Translations under genes and position numbers: made by a program | UHGV virus genome: UHGV-0203498 | Reading direction: 5' to 3' (one strand) | DNA: 32,670 nucleotides | Origin: a virus | Notes under the pieces: generated by a model | What the model saw: only the letters and a program-made list of their open reading frames with translations | Told to the model about the DNA's origin: nothing | Database searches by the model: none | Shown here: piece by piece, positions 2,290 through 28,312 of the stretch | Numbering within the stretch: the first letter of the stretch is position 1 | How the letters are laid out: each line of letters opens with the position of its first letter

Positions 2290-2447
2290 TTTGTTTTATG
2301 TAGTAAAACTGAATAGGTATGCACTTTTTCAGGGGGTGCCGTAGCGGGACGTCCCGCTTGTCCCGCTTTTAGTTTATGCAATAAAAGTAAATAGGTATGC
2401 AGTTTTCGAGGGGCGGGACAAAACGGGACGTCCCGCTTGTCCCGCTT
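2290..2447. repeat. Two tandem ~79-bp units (TTTATGCAATAAAA...AGGGGG...GGGACGTCCCGCTTGTCCCGC)
   Basis: Units begin at 2295 and 2374 with TTTATG(C/T)A(A/G)TAAAA and end with GGGACGTCCCGCTTGTCCCGC. Perfect 10-bp palindromes GGGACGTCCC lie at 2346-2355 and 2425-2434. Confidence 0.8.
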
Positions 2448-2450
2448 TAT

Positions 2451-18921: not shown

Positions 18922-19083
18922 TTTATGCAGTCTCAGACGAGGGGGGTGCCAGACCCCCCGTCTAGTCTGAAAGACTGGGGTGCTGTCCCGCTGTCCCGCT
19001 CCTCTGGAAGCCGCGTCATCCGTGGGCGGGACGGGGTGCTGTCCCGCTTTGTCCCGCCCCTGGTCTGTCCCGCTTTTTGTCCC
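18922..19083. repeat. Copy B of the ~163-bp structured repeat element
   Basis: 18923-18999 is identical to 2128-2203 and 19027-19083 is identical to 2233-2289, in the same orientation, 16.8 kb from copy A. Confidence 0.85.
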
Positions 19084-19223: not shown

Positions 19224-21488
19224 TTAATCTTTCAAGTCATCGTCTGTCGCCGAAAGCGTGATTGGGATATCCGATTTGATAACCAAATTAGACGACCCAT
19301 ATATGGCCCCGGTGTGTGGATCTGTGTAAAAACCGAGCACGCCGCGCTCGACCATATCGTCAATTGCCTTCGTCGATGTGCCACCTTTCGCGAGTCCCGC
19401 CTGGCGGACAATTGCCGATTTACTGAATCCAGTATGATCCGGGTTATCTTCCATCAGTTTTTCCAGTGCCGCATAAAGCACTTTTTCTTTTTCTGTGCGC
19501 GGTCCGGCGGTGTTCTCTTCCTTAACTGCGGCTTTGCCCGCGGCCTTCGCCTGTTCGATAGCGAACGGTGCCAGGGCAACCGGTACGAGGTAGAGAGTCT
19601 CGTCGCGTGGCGTGGAGGCGATAGGCTTGACGTCCCAACCGGCAACCACATCGCCGAAGTCAGGCCCAGCGCTGGTGGACTGGTGGGCTTCGAACGCCTC
19701 GGACTTGCGGAGATCCACCTTCACCTTGCACTTGAGCAGGACGAAGCCGCGCGGCGCTTGCTTGATGCCGTTACGAGACTTCTCGTGGTACAGGTTGAGT
19801 TGGCCTGGCTGGTTGTCGTCTGGCTGTTCCAGGAAGAACGCAGAATCGACAGCACCATGAAGCGCGCCGGATCCGCGTGGCGTTCTGCTGCCGTTTGCAC
19901 CTTTAGCCGGGTGGTGGATGACGCCCGCGCTGCCGCCTGTATTTTCCGCAATGGCCTTCAGCGCCTTGACTACCTCGCCCATATCGCTGGCGTTGTTCTC
20001 GTCGAATGGCTTGGCATCGGCGGACCGCAGCGCGACAGTCTGGTTGAGTGAGTCGAATGCCACCAGGCCAACCGGTTCGCCATTCGCGGTGCGATTGATA
20101 AAGCTGATAACTTCGCGCAGGCCAGACTTGCTGGTGATATCCCAGCCGCGTGACTGCAGGTCTATAATGTGCAACTTGTCCAGGTCGTGCTCGTATTTGA
20201 TCTGCAATGCTTCCTTACGCTGGCTGGAGGCTTCGCCGCCTTCCGCATCGAAATAGAAGCAATGGGACTGGACGACCTTCGCACCGCCAAACGGGATACC
20301 AGCGGCAACCGCGCCCATCTGACCCAGCACGTAGAACGACTTACCGATGTTCGACTCACCGGCGAGATACCAGGTCGATTTGAAGTTAACCAGGCCTTCG
20401 ATGATCGGGTCGTGTTTACTGAACAGGGCGACCGGCTCGTTGTCCAGGTCTGCATCTGTGCATTCGCCGAACTCGTCGCCGTCACCGACCGCGTCCACGA
20501 TATGCTCGTAGCATGATTCCACTTCCTCGTCGTCCAGCCCCGGAAGGATGGCGGCGATCTGCTTACGTGACATGTTGTGCGGTTCGACGTTCAGGTGGTC
20601 CGGGATACCGATCAGACGCAGCGCCAGGTGCTGGTGTTTATTCAGTTCTGAGCAACACTCGTTACCGGTGTGCATACACTTGAAACGGATCTCGCCATCC
20701 TTAACCAGGATTGCCGTTGACCCTTCGCCACTGTGCAGGTGTTCGTTAGGACACGGCACTTCATAGCCGCGACCGGATGACAGGGGTTCAAAGCCCGCCT
20801 GGAAGCACCAGTCCAGGATGCCGTCTGCCACACCGCCGTCGCCCTGGGTCAGTTCGTGGCGTACTTCCTCTTTCTCAACTCCCAGCTTGTCAGCCAGGCG
20901 GAGCAGACGACGGACGCGGGCACGCTTGCCGTAGTGGCACTTAACGACAGCCTGCTGGTGCGGCAGGTACATAAGGCGGTTTGTGTCTTTCGTGCAATCG
21001 TCGAAAGCCACATCAGACAGGCCCAGTTGGTCTAACAACGCATACTGGACGCGGCCCAGGTCTTCCGCCGGTACAGGCTTGTCAGTGAGCACCAGGAAAC
21101 GAGCGCAACGCGTGCCACCTTTCAGCGGGTGTCGGTCGCCGGTAGTGGTGTGGAAGACGTGCTCCAGTCCCGCGTCGATGAACGCCTTACGGCAGCGGCG
21201 TAAGGTGCTGGTGTCGGTGCGGTCAATATCGAAGAACAGGATCGAGCGGTCCACCGCACTGGTCTTACGACGCAATCCGTCACGGGTATACGCCACTATG
21301 CCATCAGCCTTACGCTTGCGGCGCGCATACTCGGCTTTATCTTCCGTCTTGTTGATATGCACCGACGATATTTCTTTCGCATCTTTGATAAATTCGAAAA
21401 ATTCATCAGTGGTCATCTGGAAGTTTTCCGCCCTGGCTTTTTCGCCTTTTTTAGCGGGTTTTGTTACAGCGAATTTAATTAAGCTCAT
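19224..21488 (-). CDS. DNA primase / helicase (primase-polymerase-like N-terminal domain, zinc-binding middle region, P-loop ATPase C-terminal domain)
   Basis: N-terminal ILFFDIDRTD (hhhhDhD primase-polymerase-like motif); Cys/His cluster CPNEHLH...CMHTGNECC; Walker A AGESNIGKS and Walker B-like GLVAFDSLN. Confidence 0.8.
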   Translation of the reverse strand: MSLIKFAVTKPAKKGEKARAENFQMTTDEFFEFIKDAKEISSVHINKTEDKAEYARRKRKADGIVAYTRDGLRRKTSAVDRSILFFDIDRTDTSTLRRCRKAFIDAGLEHVFHTTTGDRHPLKGGTRCARFLVLTDKPVPAEDLGRVQYALLDQLGLSDVAFDDCTKDTNRLMYLPHQQAVVKCHYGKRARVRRLLRLADKLGVEKEEVRHELTQGDGGVADGILDWCFQAGFEPLSSGRGYEVPCPNEHLHSGEGSTAILVKDGEIRFKCMHTGNECCSELNKHQHLALRLIGIPDHLNVEPHNMSRKQIAAILPGLDDEEVESCYEHIVDAVGDGDEFGECTDADLDNEPVALFSKHDPIIEGLVNFKSTWYLAGESNIGKSFYVLGQMGAVAAGIPFGGAKVVQSHCFYFDAEGGEASSQRKEALQIKYEHDLDKLHIIDLQSRGWDITSKSGLREVISFINRTANGEPVGLVAFDSLNQTVALRSADAKPFDENNASDMGEVVKALKAIAENTGGSAGVIHHPAKGANGSRTPRGSGALHGAVDSAFFLEQPDDNQPGQLNLYHEKSRNGIKQAPRGFVLLKCKVKVDLRKSEAFEAHQSTSAGPDFGDVVAGWDVKPIASTPRDETLYLVPVALAPFAIEQAKAAGKAAVKEENTAGPRTEKEKVLYAALEKLMEDNPDHTGFSKSAIVRQAGLAKGGTSTKAIDDMVERGVLGFYTDPHTGAIYGSSNLVIKSDIPITLSATDDDLKD

Positions 21489-22229: not shown

Positions 22230-22760
22230 ATGTTTGAGCAAATCGTAAACCTGATCACACGCGGCGTAGTAGCACTGGAAACCATCGCGAAGCATTATGA
22301 AACCGTCGGTGCTGCCGTGGACCCAAAAGCGAACGGCACAGCTAAGAAAGGCAAGGCTAAGCCGGAAACCGAAGTCGAAGACGACGATCAGGACGAAGTA
22401 GAAGATACGCCTAAAGCGAAAAAAGGCGCGGCAAAAGAAACCAAGTCTAAAGGTAAGGCTAAGAAGGAAGTCGTAGAAGATGAAGACGACGAAGCGGAAG
22501 AAGAAGCTCCGGCGAAGTCTAAGAAAGCGAAAGGCAAAGGTAAGAAAGAAGCTGACCCGCTGGCAGAAATGCGCGACGAAATCAAACAGTATGCCGCTAT
22601 TATTGCAGGCGGTGATGATGATGATGCGAACGACGAATTTGATGACCTGCTGGAATCGTATGAAATTAAATCCATCGCCAAGCTGGAAGACGACGACGTC
22701 GAAGACTTCCACAAAGATTTAAAAGAAATCGTCGAAACCTATTTCGAACTGGAAGATTAA
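22230..22760 (+). CDS. Highly acidic, lysine-patch low-complexity protein (first early gene)
   Basis: ATG at 22230 preceded by GGAG at 8-nt spacing; alternating K-rich and D/E-rich blocks (KKGKAKPETEVEDDDQDEVED..., DEDDEAEEEAPAKSKKAKGKGKK). The ORF-track start at 22050 is unlikely. Confidence 0.5.
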   Translation: MFEQIVNLITRGVVALETIAKHYETVGAAVDPKANGTAKKGKAKPETEVEDDDQDEVEDTPKAKKGAAKETKSKGKAKKEVVEDEDDEAEEEAPAKSKKAKGKGKKEADPLAEMRDEIKQYAAIIAGGDDDDANDEFDDLLESYEIKSIAKLEDDDVEDFHKDLKEIVETYFELED

Positions 22761-23060: not shown

Positions 23061-23248
23061 TGGCTATATTCTTTGTTTTATTTCGTTGCCGTATCACCGG
23101 CGACGAGCGACCGGAAATAATTAGGCATGAGAACTGGCTTTGCTGTTGGGGGAAAGCCTGCGACCTGGCTTTGACAATGAACGAAGATGCGAATCGTGCC
23201 AATGTTAAACATGATTATTACATCGCTCAATTTTCAAGGGTTGGATAA
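23060..23248 (+). CDS. Hypothetical small protein
   Basis: 62-aa ORF coupled through TAATG overlaps at both ends. Confidence 0.35.
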   Translation: MAIFFVLFRCRITGDERPEIIRHENWLCCWGKACDLALTMNEDANRANVKHDYYIAQFSRVG

Positions 23249-24678
23249 TGGCTATTAAACAAAAGCGCAAAACACAATCAGGTAGCAATACGGAACACTC
23301 ATTACTCGGGCCATCTGGATCTAAAAAATGGATGGGGTGCCCTGCCGCCCTGGTAGTTGAAAAAGATATCCCGAACGAATCCGGGCAAGCTGCGATTAAC
23401 GGTACGAGTATGCACACGGTATCGGAGGTCGTGCTAAACCGCATCATTGCCGGGGAAAAGCTGATAACCGCGAAGACGTACAAAGGGTGTTACGTCGAGA
23501 ACGAAGGTAAGGGGCCGGTAAAGGCGCACCCGAAAGCACCGAAAGGCGGCGTACTGGTCAGCGATGATATGGTGAAACAGTGCGATGCGTACATCGACCA
23601 CTGGCGACCGCTCCTGGAAGTGGCGGAGTTTGTCCAGCTTGAAATGCGCGCCGATCTGACCCGCGTCTTACACCCTGGCTTTGAGATGGACGGCAACAAG
23701 GTGAAGACGTTCGGCACCGCCGATATGGTCATGGTCATGAAGAAGACCGACGGCTCGTACATGCTGATTGTTGGCGACCTGAAGACCGGGCGACATAAGG
23801 TCGAGGCGAAAGAAAACAAACAGCTTATGTTGTATGCGCTGGGCCTGCTGCGCAAGCTGAAAACTATGTACGACATTACAACCGTGCGACTGGTTATCTT
23901 CCAGCCGTATTGCGGCGGGGCGTCGGAGTGGGATATTTCGGTAGAAGCCCTGGAGATATTCGCTAAGTTTGCGTCAAAGCGTGCTATCGCCGCCCTGGAA
24001 GCGTACGCCCGCGGCAAAAAGGGACTCACCCGTGCCGACTTCCGCCCTAGCGTTGACGCGTGCCAGTGGTGCCGATTTGCGGACCAGTGTAGTGCCCGCG
24101 CTAAGGTCGCAATCGACACGATGACACCACCAACGGCAACAGACGAAGACCTGGGCGACGACGTGAGCGTGGCGACAGAGGAAGAATGCGCCAATCATGA
24201 CCGCAATATGGCCCGCGAAGCTCGGAAAGCGGCACGACGTGCGAAGCGGGGCAAGAAGGAAGAAGCGCCAGGGGCGATGACCACGGCGGAACTGCGTAAG
24301 GCATACGAAGGTCTTGACGCAATACGCCAGCACATCAAGGCTATCGAGTCCGCAGTGTTCAAGGCCGTAATGGCGGGAGATGGTGAATCGCTGGGCCTCA
24401 AGATGGTTGCCGGTAAAGCTGGTGTCCGCAAGTGGGCGGACGAGAGCGAAGTGATTGAAATCTTCACGAAGGCCCGGATCAAGCGCGACGTGATGTACAA
24501 AGAAACATTGCTCAGTCCTACCGACGCCGAGAAGGTATTGAAGGACGAGAAACCGAAAGTGTGGGCAAAATTGTGTGATAAAATCACGCGCGCACCGGCT
24601 AAACCGGTATTAGCCCCTATCGACGACCCGCGCCCTGCGTGGTCTGAAGCTACCGACGAGGACTTAAGTAATGAATAA
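23248..24678 (+). CDS. PD-(D/E)xK nuclease of the Cas4 / RecB type with a four-Cys cluster and a ~170-aa C-terminal extension
   Basis: Nuclease motifs TADMVMV, VGDLKTGRHK and QLMLYA; Cys in WMGCPAAL plus CQWCRFADQC (putative Fe-S cluster). Confidence 0.75.
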   Translation: MAIKQKRKTQSGSNTEHSLLGPSGSKKWMGCPAALVVEKDIPNESGQAAINGTSMHTVSEVVLNRIIAGEKLITAKTYKGCYVENEGKGPVKAHPKAPKGGVLVSDDMVKQCDAYIDHWRPLLEVAEFVQLEMRADLTRVLHPGFEMDGNKVKTFGTADMVMVMKKTDGSYMLIVGDLKTGRHKVEAKENKQLMLYALGLLRKLKTMYDITTVRLVIFQPYCGGASEWDISVEALEIFAKFASKRAIAALEAYARGKKGLTRADFRPSVDACQWCRFADQCSARAKVAIDTMTPPTATDEDLGDDVSVATEEECANHDRNMAREARKAARRAKRGKKEEAPGAMTTAELRKAYEGLDAIRQHIKAIESAVFKAVMAGDGESLGLKMVAGKAGVRKWADESEVIEIFTKARIKRDVMYKETLLSPTDAEKVLKDEKPKVWAKLCDKITRAPAKPVLAPIDDPRPAWSEATDEDLSNE

Positions 24679-24913
24679 AGTATTCGCAGTCTTATTGATG
24701 TTTTTGCTAGGCGCGCTGGGATTTATCTTGCATTGCGTGCAAGGCGTGTTAATGGTGGCCTGGATGATTCGCCATCCAACCCAATGGCTGGACAATGGGT
24801 ATAGCGAAGCTGCCGTCGACTGGGTGGAGAAGAACATTGACCGCCCGCCGTTAAGCTGGATCGAGAACGCCACCAACTACGTGACACGAAATCTTTTTAA
24901 TGAAAATGCTTGA
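24671..24913 (+). CDS. Hypothetical small membrane protein
   Basis: N-terminal hydrophobic segments VFAVLLMFLLGALGFILH and VLMVAWMI; overlaps the upstream gene by 8 nt. Confidence 0.4.
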   Translation: MNKVFAVLLMFLLGALGFILHCVQGVLMVAWMIRHPTQWLDNGYSEAAVDWVEKNIDRPPLSWIENATNYVTRNLFNENA

Positions 24914-24923
24914 CCGCTCAGAC

Positions 24924-24950
24924 GCAACCAAGTAGATTAGCAACCAAGCC
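24924..24950 (-). promoter_or_regulatory. TTGGTTGC motif pair (variant) upstream of the SSB gene
   Basis: Plus-strand GCAACCAAG at 24926-24934 and again 16 bp later. Confidence 0.35.
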
Positions 24951-25003
24951 GAACGGGGTGGCTCACAATAACCCCGATACATGTGAAAATGAGGAATTGG
25001 AAA

Positions 25004-25795
25004 ATGGCTAAAGTCAACCTGAAAAATGTGCGCGTATGCTTCCTGAAAATTTGGGAGCGTGATACCCCAAAACAGGATGGGCAGAAACCGGCATACCGTG
25101 CCGTTATTCTTCTGGATAAAGAAGATCCGCAGGTGGACAAAGTGGAAGCGGCAGCGCGCGCAGTGCTCACCGACAAGCTGAAATCCGAGAAGAATGCCGA
25201 TAAGTGGATGGACCGCCACTACGCACAGGACTCTAAGGAGTGCGCCGTCCGCGACGGTGACGAGCGCGACGAAGTAACCGAAGAGTTTGAAGGCATGTTG
25301 TACATCAACGCCAAGTCGTTTAAACAGCCTAACATCCAAACGTCACTGGGCGAGAAGCAGACCGAACAGGGTCTGACCGTAGAAGGCGACGAGATCGAAG
25401 GCCAGGAGATCTACTCCGGTTGTTACTGCAACGTGTCCCTCGATATTTGGGCGTGGAACAACACCAACGGCAAAGGACTCGGTGCCGGATTGCTGGGTCT
25501 GCGCTTCCGCGAAGACGGTGATGCCTTCGGCGGTGGTGGGTCTTCTTGCACCGATGACGATCTGGACAACGACGACGAAGACGAAGCACCGCGCAAGTCT
25601 AAAAAGTCAAAACGTCGTGATGACGACGATGATGATGACAAGCCGCGCAAGTCCAAGAAATCCAAGCGCCGCGATGACGACGACGATGAGGAAGAGGAAA
25701 AACCTCGCAAACGTCGTAAGCCACGCGATGACGAAGATGAGGACGATGATGACGATGACGACGATGTAAAACCTCGCAAACGTCGCCGCCGTTAA
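25004..25795 (+). CDS. Single-stranded DNA-binding protein (gp2.5-like) with a repetitive basic/acidic C-terminal tail
   Basis: ATG at 25004 preceded by GAGGAA at 8-nt spacing. N-terminus MAKVNLKNVRVCFLKIWE resembles gp2.5-like phage SSBs. The C-terminus is built of repeats such as PRKSKKSKRRDDDDDDD. Confidence 0.55.
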   Translation: MAKVNLKNVRVCFLKIWERDTPKQDGQKPAYRAVILLDKEDPQVDKVEAAARAVLTDKLKSEKNADKWMDRHYAQDSKECAVRDGDERDEVTEEFEGMLYINAKSFKQPNIQTSLGEKQTEQGLTVEGDEIEGQEIYSGCYCNVSLDIWAWNNTNGKGLGAGLLGLRFREDGDAFGGGGSSCTDDDLDNDDEDEAPRKSKKSKRRDDDDDDDKPRKSKKSKRRDDDDDEEEEKPRKRRKPRDDEDEDDDDDDDDVKPRKRRRR

Positions 25796-25813: not shown

Positions 25814-25840
25814 AAGCCCGCTTAATGCGGGCTTTTTATT
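25814..25840 (+). terminator. Rho-independent terminator after the SSB gene
   Basis: Stem AAGCCCGC / GCGGGC with loop TTAAT, followed by TTTTTATT. Confidence 0.6.
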
Positions 25841-25853
25841 AGGACAATGAAAA

Positions 25854-26024
25854 ATGATTGTTAAAGCCAGCGAAGTAAAGGTCGGAATGAAGGTGTGGTC
25901 CAAATTGCTGGGCGAGTATTTCATCGTTGCCGAGATTCGCAACAACGGCGAGGAGATAACCCTTTCCGACGGTATCTTCTCCATGATCGGCAGCGCTGAC
26001 GCCGTAGTGAGGATAAAGCAATGA
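25854..26024 (+). CDS. Small hypothetical protein (56 aa) coupled to the DNA polymerase start
   Basis: ATG at 25854; its stop overlaps the polymerase ATG (ATGA). Sequence MIVKASEVKVGMKVWSKLLGEYFIVAEIRNNGEEITLSDGIFSMIGSADAVVRIKQ. Below the ORF-track size cutoff. Confidence 0.3.
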   Translation: MIVKASEVKVGMKVWSKLLGEYFIVAEIRNNGEEITLSDGIFSMIGSADAVVRIKQ

Positions 26025-28312
26025 AAGACTTCGAACGCCTGTTTCTCGACACCGAGACATTCAGCGAGGTGGACCTGAAGAAAGTCGGGGCGTACGCCTA
26101 CGCAGAACACCCATCGACCGAGATTATGATCTGCACCTACGCCATCGACGAGGGCCGCGTGCAGACATGGGACGCCACTGAATCCCCCACAATGCCGCGT
26201 GAACTGCGCAAGGCGCTCCGCCAGGTATCCCGCAAGAAAGCAAAAATCGTGATGGCTAACGGCCTCCTGTTTGACCGCCTGGTTATCAGTGAGAAGTGGG
26301 GAATCGACCTGCCGGTAAGCCAGATCGAAGACACCATGATTATGGCCTTCCGCCACGCGCTGCCAGGTAGCCTCGATATGCAGTGCCAGGTACTGGGCGT
26401 TGACGCAGAGCACGCGAAGGATAAGGCGGGTAAGGCGCTGATCAAACGGTTCTGTAAGCCTACCCCTAAGACCTACAAAATCCGCCGTTACACGCGCGAG
26501 ACGCACCCTGAAGAGTGGGCTAAATTCCTGCGCTATGCCGCGCTGGATATTGTTGCTATGCGTGAAGTCTACTGGCGCATACCAGACTGGGGCAACACGC
26601 CGAAGGAAGACGAAATCCTGCGCATCGACCAGATGATTAACGACCGAGGCTTCTATGTGGACGTTGACCTGGCGAACGCCGCGATCAAGGCGGTGCAGGC
26701 GCATAAGGAAGAATTGAAGGAAGAGGCATGGGAGCGGTTTGGCGGCAAGCTGACCGGCAACGACTTCCTGCCGATTCTGCGTGATATTGCCCCGGCGTTC
26801 ACTATTCACAACGCGCAGAAATCCACGCTGAACGACTTGCTCGAAGACCCGGACTTCCCTGATGAGGGCAAAGCGCTGATTGAGATGCGTCTCGGTGCAT
26901 CATCAACGGCATCGACTAAGTACAATCCGCTCGTCAATGGCCTGTCTGCCGATGGTCGCCGCCGTGGCTGTCTTCAGTATGGCGGGGCGAAGCGCACACT
27001 GCGTTGGGCCGGTAAAGGCTTTCAGCCTCAAAACCTGGCACGAGGCGAGTACAGCGATGACCACGAAGGGAAGATTAAACGCCGCGAGGGCGAAAGCGAC
27101 GTCTCGTTTTGGGTCCGGTCGCACATGCTCACCAACGGCATCAACTCCCTGTTACGCGGTACAGCGCACTGGGCATATGACATATCGAAGCTGACCGCCT
27201 CGACCGTTCGCGGGTGCATTATCCCTGCTAAGGGCAAGAAGTTTGTCGTAGCGGACTATTCAAACGTCGAAGGGCGCGGGCTTGCCTGGATCGCGGGCGA
27301 GAAAACTGCGCTCATGGTGTTTAAAGCCGGTCGTGATATTTATTGCGAGACAGCCGGTAAGATGTTTGGCCTCGACCCGGACTACATCAAAGCCAACCGC
27401 AAGGATTTACGCCAGATCGGCAAGGCTTGCGAGCTTGGCCTGGGCTATGGGGGTGGTGTCGCGGCGTTCTTGCAGTTCGCCAAAAACCTGGGCCTGGACC
27501 TGTACGCGATGGCGGAAGTCATGAAGGGCACATTCCCCGATCACATTTGGGCGGCGGCGAAACGCGGCTATGAGTACGCCCGCATTAACGAAGCGAAGCG
27601 CCCGCCGAAGCCTGGCAAGAAAGACGAGCGCCCAACCTACATACTGCCGAAAAACGTATGGCTGACTTGTGACGCAATCAAACGTATGTGGCGCGAGGCT
27701 CACCCGAAGACGGTCACCTTTTGGGCCGAGCTTGAGGACGCGGTGTTGTGTGCAATCCGCAATCCGGGCAAAGCATACTGGGCTGGCGCTAACGTTCGCC
27801 CGGATGGCAGAAAAGCGCTCAAGATAGTGCGCACGAAGGCGAAGCACGACCCTACCTTCGACGAGGAGCGCGACGACCCGAACGCGGCTGGGTGGTGGCT
27901 TAAAATTGAGTTGCCGTCAGGGCGCATCATGAGCTACCCTGGCATCGCGCTGTCTGTCACGACCGAGATCGACGAAGACACCGGCAAGAAGCGAACCAGT
28001 ACCCGCATCAAATACCAGGGCGAGAATCAGACGACGCGTCAGTGGGGATTCCAGTACACCTACGGCGGCAAACTTACGGAGAACATCGTACAGGCGTTGT
28101 GCCGCGATATTCTCGCATGGTCCATGCCTGGCGTTGAAGCTGCGGGGTATGAAATCGTCCTGTCGGTGCATGATGAATTGATAACTGAAGTGCCAGACAC
28201 GGATGACTACACGACTGAAGAGCTTTGCGCGCTGATGTGCGACCTGCCTATTTGGGCGAAAGGGTTCCCACTTGCCGCAGAGGGCGACATTATGTACAGG
28301 TACAGGAAGTAA
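26021..28312 (+). CDS. Family A DNA polymerase with 3'-5' proofreading exonuclease domain
   Basis: Exonuclease motifs LFLDTETFS, MANGLLFD and YAALDI; polymerase motif A ADYSNVEGRG, motif B RQIGKACELGLGYGGG, motif C SVHDELI. Confidence 0.9.
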   Translation: MKDFERLFLDTETFSEVDLKKVGAYAYAEHPSTEIMICTYAIDEGRVQTWDATESPTMPRELRKALRQVSRKKAKIVMANGLLFDRLVISEKWGIDLPVSQIEDTMIMAFRHALPGSLDMQCQVLGVDAEHAKDKAGKALIKRFCKPTPKTYKIRRYTRETHPEEWAKFLRYAALDIVAMREVYWRIPDWGNTPKEDEILRIDQMINDRGFYVDVDLANAAIKAVQAHKEELKEEAWERFGGKLTGNDFLPILRDIAPAFTIHNAQKSTLNDLLEDPDFPDEGKALIEMRLGASSTASTKYNPLVNGLSADGRRRGCLQYGGAKRTLRWAGKGFQPQNLARGEYSDDHEGKIKRREGESDVSFWVRSHMLTNGINSLLRGTAHWAYDISKLTASTVRGCIIPAKGKKFVVADYSNVEGRGLAWIAGEKTALMVFKAGRDIYCETAGKMFGLDPDYIKANRKDLRQIGKACELGLGYGGGVAAFLQFAKNLGLDLYAMAEVMKGTFPDHIWAAAKRGYEYARINEAKRPPKPGKKDERPTYILPKNVWLTCDAIKRMWREAHPKTVTFWAELEDAVLCAIRNPGKAYWAGANVRPDGRKALKIVRTKAKHDPTFDEERDDPNAAGWWLKIELPSGRIMSYPGIALSVTTEIDEDTGKKRTSTRIKYQGENQTTRQWGFQYTYGGKLTENIVQALCRDILAWSMPGVEAAGYEIVLSVHDELITEVPDTDDYTTEELCALMCDLPIWAKGFPLAAEGDIMYRYRK

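What the first reader, a model, noticed from the sequence alone, without database searches (positions are those of the whole stretch)
25560..25795. SSB with a repetitive alternating basic/acidic C-terminal tail ending in KPRKRRRR
The gp2.5-like SSB carries four imperfect tandem coding repeats (~60 bp each) that give PRKSKKSKRR followed by runs of 7-12 Asp/Glu. Phage gp2.5-type SSBs normally end in a purely acidic tail used for polymerase and helicase contacts. Here the tail alternates basic and acidic blocks and ends basic, which suggests a nuclear-localisation-like or nucleic-acid-condensing function or phase-separation behaviour. The repeats are also a likely site of length variation between isolates.
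Basis: seen in the sequence. Interest (0 to 1): 0.55.

Follow-up and report, generated by a model that had tools for sequence, protein, structure and literature searches.

The report
Phage SSB with charge-block tail

Summary
Window 25004..25795 (+) encodes a 263-aa Enc34/T7-gp2.5-type SSB of a Dhillonvirus-like coliphage. Residues 183-263 are a disordered tail: TDDDLDNDDEDE, then four basic blocks (PRKSKKSKRR, KPRKSKKSKRR, KPRKRRKPR, KPRKRRRR) alternating with D/E runs of 7, 9 and 13.

The tail is not an artefact. It is in frame in about 150 related phages, evolves under purifying selection (dN/dS 0.11), and carries 0-3 internal units. The acidic head and the PRKRRRR end are kept in every in-frame Dhillonvirus tail I read.

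In a search unbiased by the tail, 136 of 150 family representatives have short, purely acidic tails.

New result: the canonical docking motif is not lost. T-D-[DEA]-D-L occurs five times in the window: once in the SSB, twice in the helicase-primase (once at its C-terminus) and twice in the exonuclease (once at its C-terminus). It co-varies between these proteins across lineages, like the T7 gp2.5 and gp4 tails.

The basic/acidic blocks are therefore an extension added after a retained docking peptide. Its clade has an OB domain about 9 charges more acidic.

The function of the extension is inferred, not shown: electrostatic tuning or multivalency. The NLS reading is not supported. This is a new variant of a known kind, of moderate interest.

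The parts
24910..24938 (+). Promoter-like site (TTGACC-17-TAGATT) upstream of the SSB gene
   Evidence: Consensus scan. A consensus match only. Retron-Eco8 escapers of the related phage SECphi4 include a mutation in the intergenic region upstream of the SSB gene.
25004..25795 (+). SSB gene, 263 aa plus stop; Enc34 ORF6 / DUF2815 / T7 gp2.5-like
   Evidence: Pfam PF10991, 110.9 bits against a cut-off of 26. PHROG 112. PDB sequence hits 4KLK, 4JG2, 5ODJ. Foldseek: 5ODL E 7e-12, 1JE5 E 1e-6.
25004..25528 (+). OB-fold ssDNA-binding domain, residues 1-175
   Evidence: AF2 block-mean pLDDT 93-98 up to residue 170. Net charge -8. The basic-ended clade averages -7.0 against +2.2 in acid-tipped relatives, and the shift is concentrated in the loop at residues 111-140.
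25529..25549 (+). Gly/Ser hinge GGGGSSC, residues 176-182
   Evidence: pLDDT falls below 50 at residues 177-180. A Gly-rich stretch follows the GDAF motif across the family.
25550..25585 (+). Proximal acidic-hydrophobic docking motif TDDDLDNDDEDE, residues 183-194
   Evidence: AF2 predicts a short helix at 184-187. A D-[DE]-[LF] motif sits at this position across the family. The same motif is found in the exonuclease and the helicase-primase.
25589..25726 (+). Three internal charge-block units, residues 196-241: PRKSKKSKRR / D7 / KPRKSKKSKRR / D5E4 / KPRKRRKPR
   Evidence: Block layout. Copy number is 0-3 among Dhillonvirus isolates. The differences between units 1 and 2 within the basic block are synonymous only.
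25727..25768 (+). Last acidic block of 13 D/E (residues 242-254), then V255
   Evidence: This is the longest such run among the alleles aligned.
25769..25792 (+). Arg-rich C-terminus KPRKRRRR, residues 256-263
   Evidence: PRKRRRR is present in all in-frame Dhillonvirus tails read. One divergent contig (L019, 85% identical in its best aligned segment) ends PRSRRNRR. Jerseyvirus and Kagunavirus end PRRERRRNR and PRRERRRR.
25814..25839 (+). Intrinsic-terminator-like hairpin and T-run just after the SSB stop codon
   Evidence: The hairpin is also present in phage welsh.
23248..24678 (+). DUF2800 PD-(D/E)XK exonuclease. Carries the motif in its linker (TATDEDLGDD, nt 24139-24153) and at its C-terminus (SEATDEDLSNE*, nt 24652-24666). 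In the Dhillonvirus-type sequences compared (window and L019), an acidic-then-basic insertion follows the linker copy (nt 24163-24276).
   Evidence: Pfam PF10926 and PF12705. Alignment A2: D472 and L473 invariant, insertion present only in the window and L019. Motif positions. Insertion coordinates.
19224..21488 (-). Replicative helicase-primase. Carries the motif at its C-terminus (SATDDDLKD*, nt 19233-19247) and in its inter-domain region (CTDADLDNEP, nt 20445-20459).
   Evidence: ORF. PHROG 3228 and Pfam AAA_25. Motif positions. In K1ind2 the counterpart ends ...TVTEEDLE* and has an internal SLDDLEDDEDSEDDE.
26021..28312 (+). Family-A DNA polymerase. One candidate common receptor for the shared motif, by analogy with T7 gp5.
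   Evidence: Pfam PF00476 and PHROG 17. The receptor role is inferred, not tested.
22230..22760 (+). PHROG 3127 protein of unknown function, with its own alternating K-rich and D/E-rich blocks (nt 22338-22550) followed by NDEFDDLL

Best explanation
The segment encodes the intrinsically disordered C-terminal tail of a gp2.5/Enc34-type SSB. The tail has three layers.

1. **Docking peptide.** A family-wide acidic-hydrophobic peptide (TDDDL-DNDDEDE) follows the Gly hinge. The helicase-primase and the DUF2800 exonuclease carry the same peptide, so these proteins probably bind one common site. That site would be the adjacent family-A polymerase (as the T7 gp2.5 and gp4 tails bind gp5) and/or the concave beta-sheet of a neighbouring SSB (as in Enc34 crystals).

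2. **Internal units.** Between 0 and 3 [basic block + acidic block] units are gained and lost by in-frame recombination or slippage. Selection acts on their charge pattern, but each unit is individually dispensable.

3. **Arg-rich end.** PRKRRRR replaces the second, hydrophobic acidic tip found in canonical relatives.

The extension most likely works electrostatically. Its basic blocks would pair with acidic blocks and with the unusually acidic OB domain, in cis or between neighbouring SSBs. That would tune tail autoinhibition and SSB self-association on ssDNA, while the docking peptide still does the partner recruitment.

**Shown:** the anatomy, the conservation, the copy-number variation, the shared motif and its co-variation.
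**Inferred:** the receptor and the electrostatic role.
For: **Fold and family.**. The tail is disordered, with a short helix on DDDL.

**Charge blocks are non-random.** Kappa is 0.57 against 0.10 in shuffles.

**Purifying selection.** Tail dN/dS is 0.11, against 0.05 for the OB domain. The two PRKSKKSKRR units differ at 7 positions, all synonymous. Of the 34 variable tail columns, 16 are D/E or K/R swaps.

**Copy number.** Units vary from 0 to 3, always in frame. Phage welsh has only SDEDLDNDDEDEAPRKRRRR.

**The alternating tail is a clade feature.**
- Nearly every relative whose OB domain is at least 45% identical has it.
- The minimal form (acid block plus PRRERRRR) occurs in Jerseyvirus and Kagunavirus.
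- 136 of 150 unbiased representatives have acidic-only tails.

**Shared motif.**
- T-D-[DEA]-D-L occurs 5 times in all six-frame ORFs of the window. All five are in the helicase-primase, the exonuclease and the SSB. Shuffles give 0.07 on average, and 0 of 500 reached 5.
- Over 80 unique SSB/exonuclease tail pairs, the motif residue is F in both for 48 of 60 acid-tailed pairs and L in both for 17 of 20 alternating-tail pairs.
- The last four residues match the phage's own partner better than re-paired partners: 1.87 against 1.46 +/- 0.08, 0 of 10000.
- In K1ind2 the helicase-primase and the exonuclease both end EEDLE*, and its SSB has SVDDLEDDEEDE.

**Experimental precedent.**
- The Enc34 tail docks into the concave sheet of a neighbouring SSB, burying 842 A2.
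- Deleting that tail lets the protein bind dsDNA (PMC5686142).

**Charge compensation.**
- OB net charge is -7.0 +/- 2.9 in the basic-ended clade and +2.2 +/- 2.5 in acid-tipped relatives.
- Among proteins with basic blocks, rho is -0.77 between OB charge and the charge of the last 8 residues.
Against: - No binding, DNA-affinity or cooperativity measurement exists for any tail of this type.
- AF2 gives no confident contact between the tail and the OB domain.
- The OB-charge and F/L correlations rest largely on one or a few evolutionary transitions, so they are not phylogenetically independent.
- A phage with no internal units was isolated on a laboratory host. Whatever the units add is therefore not essential under those conditions.
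- The known escape mutation in this protein (T56P, against Retron-Eco8) lies in the OB domain and says nothing about the tail.
- The receptor of the shared motif is unidentified.
Confidence: 0.55

Rival explanations
1. The Arg-rich C-terminus is a new, specific docking tip. It would bind an acidic pocket on one partner (polymerase, helicase-primase or a host protein), replacing the canonical acidic-hydrophobic tip. The internal blocks would be spacers.
For: PRKRRRR is the most conserved part of the extension. It is present in every in-frame Dhillonvirus tail read and in similar form in Guernseyvirinae, whatever the number of internal units. In the same clade the second hydrophobic tip is missing from both the SSB and the exonuclease.
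Against: In related lineages the motif is not at the very end...PRKKRRNYEDDEE...PRRRRNRDED. A free-carboxylate tip is therefore not required. Some relatives replace Arg with Lys/Ala runs (KAKAKKKKKA, AAPAKKKK), which fits charge better than a specific motif. No partner site was identified.
Confidence: 0.2
2. The basic blocks bind nucleic acid, or drive SSB-DNA coacervates (phage replication foci).
For: The tail is a strongly segregated polyampholyte: fraction of charged residues 0.84, kappa 0.57. Two other proteins of the same module carry charge blocks: PHROG 3127 at 22338-22550 and the exonuclease insertion at 24163-24276. From my own knowledge, blocky polyampholytes and E. coli SSB can phase separate.
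Against: Nothing here tests it. The tail is still net acidic (-9) and so is the OB domain (-8), which argues against strong DNA binding by the tail. An isolate with one basic block exists.
Confidence: 0.15
3. The repeats are functionally neutral low-complexity expansion. Slippage in GAY/AAR/CGN-rich DNA is simply tolerated in a disordered tail.
For: Copy number ranges from 0 to 3 among isolated phages, and the indel boundaries fall inside repeated acidic or APRK-coding DNA. Tail dN/dS is twice that of the OB domain.
Against: dN/dS of 0.11 is far below 1. The 7 differences between the PRKSKKSKRR units are all synonymous. The alternation, and a basic block at or within a few residues of the C-terminus, persist down to about 38% OB identity. 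The four-block form is the commonest among the alleles read.
Confidence: 0.08
4. The repeats are a DNA-level element embedded in the coding sequence (iterons, origin or pac site), as with the lambda origin inside gene O.
For: Four direct repeats lie in a replication gene.
Against: The repeat copies conserve the amino acids and vary at third codon positions. DNA identity between units is only 66-84%. Phage welsh lacks the internal repeats altogether.
Confidence: 0.01
5. The tail is an NLS-like import signal, or the repeat region is an assembly artefact.
For: KPRKRRRR resembles a monopartite NLS by eye. Two database entries, P0005 and P0009, are frameshifted inside the tail.
Against: The relatives are E. 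coli siphophages of about 44 kb, with no nucleus to enter. About 150 independent genomes carry the tail in frame.
Confidence: 0.01

Closest known systems
Enterobacter phage Enc34 ORF6 and the DUF2815 (PF10991) SSBs (PDB 5ODJ/5ODK/5ODL, 4KLK, 4JG2)
   Same: Same family and fold. Same duf2800-gp2.5-polA gene module (PMC8093625). A disordered tail begins with an acidic stretch after a Gly-rich hinge. In the crystals that tail docks into the concave sheet of a neighbouring molecule (PMC5686142).
   Different: Enc34 and most relatives have a tail of about 20-30 residues that is purely acidic and ends in a hydrophobic residue. Here the tail is 81 residues from T183 (88 after the GDAF motif), carries four basic blocks and ends RRRR. 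The OB domain is about 9-10 charges more acidic.
T7 gp2.5 SSB together with the gp4 helicase-primase: two acidic C-terminal tails ending in Phe that bind the gp5 polymerase (established knowledge; summarised in PMC5686142, PMC10359462, PMC13402713)
   Same: Related OB fold (Foldseek E 1e-6). The logic is the same: one short acidic-hydrophobic peptide is shared by the SSB and the helicase-primase, and here by the exonuclease as well.
   Different: The hydrophobic residue is Leu, not a C-terminal Phe. In the SSB the motif is internal and followed by a charge-block extension. The receptor has not been identified here.
T4 gp32: basic N-terminal LAST motif (KRKST) needed for cooperativity, plus an acidic C-terminal domain for partner contacts (own knowledge)
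   Same: A monomeric phage SSB that combines a short basic segment and an acidic segment outside the DNA-binding core. This gives precedent for basic-acidic contacts between neighbours controlling cooperativity.
   Different: No sequence or fold membership was tested or claimed. In gp32 the two segments lie at opposite ends of the protein. Here they alternate within one tail and are repeated.
E. coli SSB: disordered linker plus acidic tip DDDIPF (own knowledge)
   Same: The architecture is OB domain, then disordered linker, then protein-docking peptide. Some DUF2815 relatives even end ...DDDDIPY or ...AIPF.
   Different: The order is reversed in the window's protein: the docking peptide comes first and the charged low-complexity region follows. 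The linker chemistry is charge blocks, not Gly/Gln/Pro.
Eukaryotic charge-block disordered regions such as Nopp140/NOLC1 and nucleolin (own knowledge)
   Same: Alternating acidic and basic blocks with a very high fraction of charged residues and strong charge segregation.
   Different: Unrelated proteins in another domain of life. This is a resemblance in sequence physics only.

Membership tests
DUF2815 / Enc34 ORF6-type (gp2.5-like) SSB | Match to Pfam PF10991 above the gathering score | tested here: met
   110.9 bits against a cut-off of 26, residues 3-193. PHROG 112, E 5e-51.
DUF2815 / Enc34 ORF6-type (gp2.5-like) SSB | Extended OB fold superimposable on solved members | tested here: met
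   AF2 model with OB-domain pLDDT 93-98. Foldseek: 4KLK E 2e-12, 5ODL E 7e-12 (TM-score on target 0.76), 1JE5 E 1e-6.
DUF2815 / Enc34 ORF6-type (gp2.5-like) SSB | Conserved aromatic residues that stack on ssDNA | tested here: inconclusive
   Y137 is invariant, and W68, F168 and F175 are nearly invariant, in a 62-sequence alignment. I did not map them onto the Enc34-DNA contacts.
DUF2815 / Enc34 ORF6-type (gp2.5-like) SSB | duf2800 - gp2.5 - polA gene module | tested here: met
   Exonuclease 23248..24678, SSB 25004..25795, PolA 26021..28312. The module is described in PMC8093625.
DUF2815 / Enc34 ORF6-type (gp2.5-like) SSB | Purely acidic C-terminal tail ending in a hydrophobic residue | tested here: not met
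   The tail has 29 K/R residues and ends KPRKRRRR. Only the proximal acidic-hydrophobic motif TDDDL is retained.
DUF2815 / Enc34 ORF6-type (gp2.5-like) SSB | Preferential ssDNA binding | not testable with these tools
   Indirect evidence only. The near-identical SSB of SECphi4 triggers Retron-Eco8, and a T56P change escapes it.
T7 gp2.5 in the strict sense | Acidic tail with an essential C-terminal aromatic residue (Phe232) | tested here: not met
   There is no aromatic residue after F175, and the C-terminus is Arg.
Shared replisome docking peptide (T7 gp2.5/gp4-like logic) | The same short acidic-hydrophobic peptide in the SSB and in other replisome proteins, co-varying between lineages | tested here: met
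   Five T-D-[DEA]-D-L sites, all in three proteins, with 0.07 expected. Co-variation of SSB and exonuclease tails over 80 unique pairs. Triple match in K1ind2.
Shared replisome docking peptide (T7 gp2.5/gp4-like logic) | Physical binding of the peptide to a common receptor (polymerase or SSB OB domain) | not testable with these tools
   Supported only by analogy: the Enc34 crystal contacts and established knowledge of T7.
Blocky polyampholyte disordered region | High fraction of charged residues, with charge segregation above that of shuffles | tested here: met
   Fraction of charged residues 0.84. Kappa 0.57 against 0.10 +/- 0.04; 0 of 2000 shuffles reached it. Tail pLDDT 46-63.
Blocky polyampholyte disordered region | Self-association or phase separation | not testable with these tools
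   No experiment or simulation was run.
Classical nuclear-localisation signal | A host or viral compartment with an import machinery that reads the signal | tested here: not met
   The closest relatives are E. coli Dhillonvirus siphophages of about 44 kb. That such phages form no nucleus is established knowledge.

The most novel reading that the evidence does not exclude
In Dhillonvirus and Guernseyvirinae the replisome may be held together by two layers. One is a common T-D-[DE]-D-L docking peptide on the SSB, the helicase-primase and the exonuclease. The other is a set of complementary charge-block disordered regions: the SSB tail, the exonuclease insertion and the PHROG 3127 protein. Together these would form a multivalent, condensate-like replication and recombination hub on ssDNA. 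The number of SSB charge blocks (0-3) would be an evolvable dial for its material properties, and the Arg-rich end would replace the acidic tip that is usually described as universal in bacterial and phage SSBs.
Probability: 0.15. Interest if true: 0.75.

Novelty: new variant of a known kind. Interest (0 to 1): 0.52.

Why it matters
An acidic C-terminal tip is usually described as a feature of all bacterial and phage SSBs. PMC5686142 says this explicitly.

This tail shows a large, heavily sequenced clade that departs from that rule: about 155 Dhillonvirus records, plus the representative Jerseyvirus and Kagunavirus genomes examined. These SSBs end in arginines and carry a variable number of basic/acidic blocks. 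None of the papers I could search mentions it.

The analysis also gives a concrete, testable map of replisome contacts for these phages. One peptide, T-D-[DE]-D-L, is present on the SSB, the helicase-primase and the exonuclease.

Dhillonviruses are in the BASEL collection. Their SSB, polymerase and DUF2800 nuclease are already known triggers or escape loci for Retron-Eco8, ShosTA, Borvo and a type IX retron. Knowing which parts of these proteins are docking peptides, and which are tunable disordered regions, helps interpret escape mutants and design truncations.

Natural alleles with 0 to 3 units form a ready-made series for testing how charge patterning in a disordered tail affects SSB function.

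Tried and rejected
- **Tandem Repeats Finder** at minimum score 30 did not report the 54-60-nt units, only GAY-type short periods. The repeat is clear at protein level and weak at DNA level.
- **Sequence charge decoration (SCD)** did not separate the tail from shuffles: 200 of 2000 shuffles were at or below the observed value. A many-block pattern averages out in that measure. Kappa is the informative one.
- **The first homologue search** picks candidates by shared words, so it over-samples similar low-complexity tails. I did not use it for frequencies. I repeated the census with the OB domain alone against the representative library.
- **The search for related loci with the 62-sequence alignment** failed because no stretch was conserved enough. 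A tighter alignment of acid-tailed members worked.
- **Defence-escape mutations in the tail.** I looked for them and found none. The Retron-Eco8 escapers listed for SECphi4 and SECphi18 carry T56P or an upstream intergenic change.
- **AF2** gave no confident placement of the tail on the OB domain.
- **Literature searches** for basic-ended or charge-patterned phage SSB tails, and for the shared motif, found nothing relevant.
- **Rejected readings:** NLS, iteron/origin and assembly artefact. The reasons are given under the rival explanations.
- **My first motif pattern** required one of D, E, G, S or N after the Leu, so it missed the helicase-primase C-terminus (…DDDLKD*). I corrected it after reading the ORF list.
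Full report
**What is there**

The window is a Dhillonvirus-like (HK578-like) E. coli siphophage. A 1-kb query around the finding matches 155 phage records at 80-95% identity, nearly all of them Escherichia or Shigella Dhillonvirus.

The gene runs from 25004 to 25795 on the + strand and encodes 263 aa.
- A promoter-like site lies at 24910-24938 and GAGGA at 24991-24995.
- A terminator-like hairpin follows at 25814-25834, so the gene looks like its own transcription unit.

Residues 3-193 match Pfam PF10991 (Enc34_ssDNA-bd, 110.9 bits) and PHROG 112, 'Gp2.5-like ssDNA binding and annealing protein'. PDB sequence hits are the DUF2815 structures 4KLK and 4JG2 and Enc34 ORF6 5ODJ. An AF2 model has pLDDT 93-98 for the OB domain. 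Foldseek matches it to 4KLK and 5ODL (E about 1e-11 to 1e-12) and to T7 gp2.5 1JE5 (E 1e-6).

The neighbours form the known duf2800-gp2.5-polA module (PMC8093625):
- a DUF2800 PD-(D/E)XK exonuclease at 23248..24678
- an 80-aa hydrophobic ORF
- the SSB
- a 56-aa ORF
- a family-A polymerase at 26021..28312

From residue 176 the model is disordered, with pLDDT 46-63. The layout is:

GGGGSSC | TDDDLDNDDEDE | A | PRKSKKSKRR | D7 | KPRKSKKSKRR | D5E4 | KPRKRRKPR | 13 D/E | V | KPRKRRRR.

- The 80-residue charged part has 29 K/R and 38 D/E, net -9.
- Its charge segregation (kappa 0.57) exceeds all 2000 shuffles, which average 0.10 +/- 0.04.
- At DNA level the units are only 66-84% identical, and Tandem Repeats Finder does not call them.
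- The two PRKSKKSKRR copies differ at seven nucleotides, all synonymous (P about 5e-5). The peptide is being conserved, not the DNA.

**Not an artefact, and under selection**

I aligned 19 complete alleles taken from public contigs and GenBank phages. Every tail is in frame. Pairwise dN/dS, computed over 18 of them (excluding the divergent L019), is 0.11 for the tail and 0.05 for the OB domain. Sixteen of the 34 variable tail columns are D/E or K/R exchanges.

Two database proteins (P0005, P0009) are frameshifted inside the tail. These are most simply sequencing errors.

**Length variation**

The number of internal [basic + acidic] units runs from 0 to 3.

| Internal units | Examples | Protein length |
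|---|---|---|
| 0 | phage welsh (tail is only SDEDLDNDDEDEAPRKRRRR) | 202 aa |
| 1 | EP23-like alleles | 224 aa |
| 2 | Envy, SECphi4 and others | 236-243 aa |
| 3 | most alleles | 256-261 aa |

The window's allele, at 263 aa, is the longest seen. For the genomes I could check, the span differences in the 1-kb megablast alignments equal the tail-length differences.

The proximal acidic block and the PRKRRRR end are present in every in-frame Dhillonvirus tail read. One divergent contig (L019, 85% identical in its best aligned segment) ends PRSRRNRR.

**How unusual it is**

The word-indexed search is biased towards similar low-complexity tails. I therefore searched 1.84 billion cluster representatives with the OB domain alone. 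Of the best 150:
- 136 have no basic block. Their tails have a median of 27 residues after the GDAF motif, and most end in a hydrophobic residue.
- About 9 alternate and end basic.
- About 5 alternate but end acidic.

Combining all the sequences, nearly every relative with at least 45% OB identity has an alternating tail, so this is a clade feature. Jerseyvirus fmb-p1 and Kagunavirus K1ind2 have the minimal form: DDLEDDEDETPRRERRRNR and ...EAPRRERRRR. Serratia Tsm2 has three blocks, and Pantoea AH01 ends ...PRKKRRNYEDDEE. More distant phages (689R2, APSE-1, Bacillus BCE1, Stenotrophomonas A1432) have canonical acidic tails.

A separate set of relatives, one of them annotated as from Ochrobactrum, has long alternating tails that keep a canonical ...DDDDLA...DDDDVV or ...DDLPF tip. 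The basic blocks and the basic end are therefore separable features.

**The main new result: the docking motif is retained and shared**

Just after the hinge, the whole family has an acidic-hydrophobic motif. It is D-[DE]-F-[DE]-D-[VIL] in acid-tailed members and [ST]-D-[DE]-D-L in the alternating clade. AF2 places a short helix on DDDL.

The same peptide occurs in two other proteins of the window:
- **Exonuclease:** ends ...PAWSEATDEDLSNE* and has TATDEDLGDD in its inter-domain linker.
- **Helicase-primase** (19224..21488, - strand; PHROG 3228): ends ...ITLSATDDDLKD* and has CTDADLDNEP between its domains.

T-D-[DEA]-D-L occurs five times in all six-frame ORFs of at least 60 aa (31,564 residues), and all five sites are these. 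Composition-preserving shuffles give 0.07 on average, and none of 500 reached 5.

The motif co-varies between the proteins across lineages.
- In K1ind2 the helicase-primase and the exonuclease both end EEDLE*. Its SSB has SVDDLEDDEEDE and its helicase-primase linker has SLDDLEDDEDSEDDE.
- Over 98 SSB/exonuclease gene pairs (80 unique tail pairs), the motif residue is F in both proteins in 48 of 60 acid-tailed pairs and L in both in 17 of 20 alternating pairs.
- In acid-tailed lineages the exonuclease also copies the SSB's second tip: ...AESLI / ...AESLI, ...GEFV / ...AEFI.
- Identity of the last four residues is 1.87 with a phage's own partner and 1.46 +/- 0.08 after re-pairing (0 of 10000).

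This is the T7 logic, in which the acidic tails of gp2.5 and gp4 bind the polymerase (established knowledge, summarised in PMC5686142 and PMC13402713). In Enc34, and in the other solved members, the tail lies in the concave beta-sheet of a neighbouring SSB and buries 842 A2.

The receptor here is therefore either PolA or the SSB OB domain. This is an inference.

**What the extension probably does**

In canonical relatives the motif is followed by a short acidic spacer and a hydrophobic tip. In this clade that tip is missing from both the SSB and the exonuclease, and the SSB instead carries basic/acidic units and an Arg-rich end.

The OB domain of the basic-ended clade is far more acidic than that of acid-tipped relatives: net -7.0 +/- 2.9 (n = 47) against +2.2 +/- 2.5 (n = 164). 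The shift is concentrated in an inserted acidic loop (residues about 114-135...GEKQTEQGLTVEGDEIEGQE) and in residues 41-50 and 81-100. Among tails with basic blocks, OB charge and the charge of the last eight residues correlate at rho = -0.77 (n = 84). These sequences are not phylogenetically independent.

Deleting the Enc34 tail lets that protein bind dsDNA, so these tails do regulate the DNA-binding cleft.

The best-supported reading is that the docking peptide still recruits partners, while the extension acts electrostatically. Its basic blocks would pair with acidic blocks and with the acidic OB surface, within one molecule or between neighbours. That would set the strength of autoinhibition and of SSB-SSB association. 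The internal units would add valency without being essential.

Two other proteins of the module also have charge blocks:
- The exonuclease linker insertion...VSVATEEE...AREARKAARRAKRGKK (nt 24163-24276). Among the sequences aligned it is present only in the Dhillonvirus-type ones, the window and L019.
- The PHROG 3127 protein (22230..22760), with three K-rich and three D/E-rich blocks followed by NDEFDDLL.

These fit a wider electrostatic network, but nothing here tests one.

**Rivals**

- A specific docking role for PRKRRRR is possible. It is weakened by relatives in which the motif is internal or replaced by Lys/Ala runs.
- Neutral expansion is contradicted by the selection signals, but it does fit the dispensability of the internal units.
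- A DNA-level element is contradicted by the synonymous divergence of the units and by the welsh allele.
- NLS and artefact are excluded.

**Literature**

The near-identical SSBs of SECphi4 and SECphi18 are known triggers of Retron-Eco8, with a T56P escape in the OB domain. In that paper's structure figure the flexible C-terminal residues were left out. I found no paper that describes the basic-ended or alternating tail, or the shared motif.

**Verdict**

The feature is real and conserved. It is a new variant of a known kind of protein. Its anatomy is now well defined, and its mechanism is inferred but testable.

Noticed in passing
window 22230..22760 (+); charge blocks at 22338-22550: A PHROG 3127 protein of unknown function, conserved in Dhillonvirus and Kagunavirus, has its own run of three K-rich and three D/E-rich blocks (AKKGKAKPE / TEVEDDDQDEVED / TPKAKKGAAKETKSKGKAKKE / VVEDEDDEAEEE / APAKSKKAKGKGKKE). 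These are followed by GGDDDDANDEFDDLLE, which resembles the F-type tail motif of acid-tailed SSB and exonuclease lineages. The K1ind2 homologue has only one basic block.
   Followed up: partly
window 24163-24276, inside the exonuclease gene 23248..24678: The exonuclease of the window and of L019 has an insertion of about 38-50 aa directly after its internal TATDEDLGDD motif. The insertion is acidic and then basic (VSVATEEECANHDRNMAREARKAARRAKRGKKEEAPGA). The Kagunavirus, Serratia, Pantoea and L016 homologues lack it.
   Followed up: partly
window 25854..26024 (+) and the intergenic stretch at about 25836-25853: The stop codon of a 56-aa ORF overlaps the polymerase start (ATGA at 26021-26024). 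In SECphi4 and SECphi18, this ORF (E21 frameshift) and the intergenic region upstream of it are mutated in defence escapers. These escapers are listed in the same block of the table as the DNA-polymerase mutants that the paper attributes to Borvo. The mutations may change read-through or coupled expression of the polymerase.
   Followed up: partly
window 24671..24913 (+): An 80-aa ORF with a hydrophobic N-terminal segment sits between the exonuclease and the SSB. Its start overlaps the end of the exonuclease gene. It has no Pfam match and is annotated in relatives as a hypothetical protein.
   Followed up: no
window 2295-2448; also 2187-2203 and 18982-19000: A 78-bp unit is repeated twice in tandem (82% match). 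Each copy contains GTCCCGCTT twice. GCTGTCCC is doubled at two distant places. These may be regulatory repeats and are unrelated to the finding.
   Followed up: no
P0005 (NCBI, phage vB_EcoS-22664B1), P0009; locus L014: Two public SSB entries are frameshifted inside the tail and read the +1 frame (…MTKMKHRARLRSPNVV…) past the normal stop. These are probably sequencing errors in low-complexity DNA. One IMG/VR contig breaks off in the tail with …AVSYTHLRAHET, which looks like translated sequencing-adaptor sequence.
   Followed up: partly
window 25343-25408 (SSB residues 114-135): The alternating-tail clade has an acidic loop, longer by about 10 residues, in the OB domain (GEKQTEQGLTVEGDEIEGQE; consensus ...G-E-x-Q-x-E-x-G-x-T-[VI]-[DE]-G-D-[DE]-[IP]-E-G). 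Acid-tailed relatives lack it. It accounts for much of the shift of about 9 charges in the OB domain.
   Followed up: partly
loci L033-L112 (IMG/VR contigs): In acid-tailed lineages the exonuclease C-terminus is a near copy of the SSB tail: a D-[DE]-F-[DE]-D-V motif plus the same final tri- or tetrapeptide (for example ESLI/ESLI, DGLV/DGLV, GEFV/AEFI). The shared-tail principle therefore looks general for duf2800-gp2.5 modules and is not special to this phage.
   Followed up: yes
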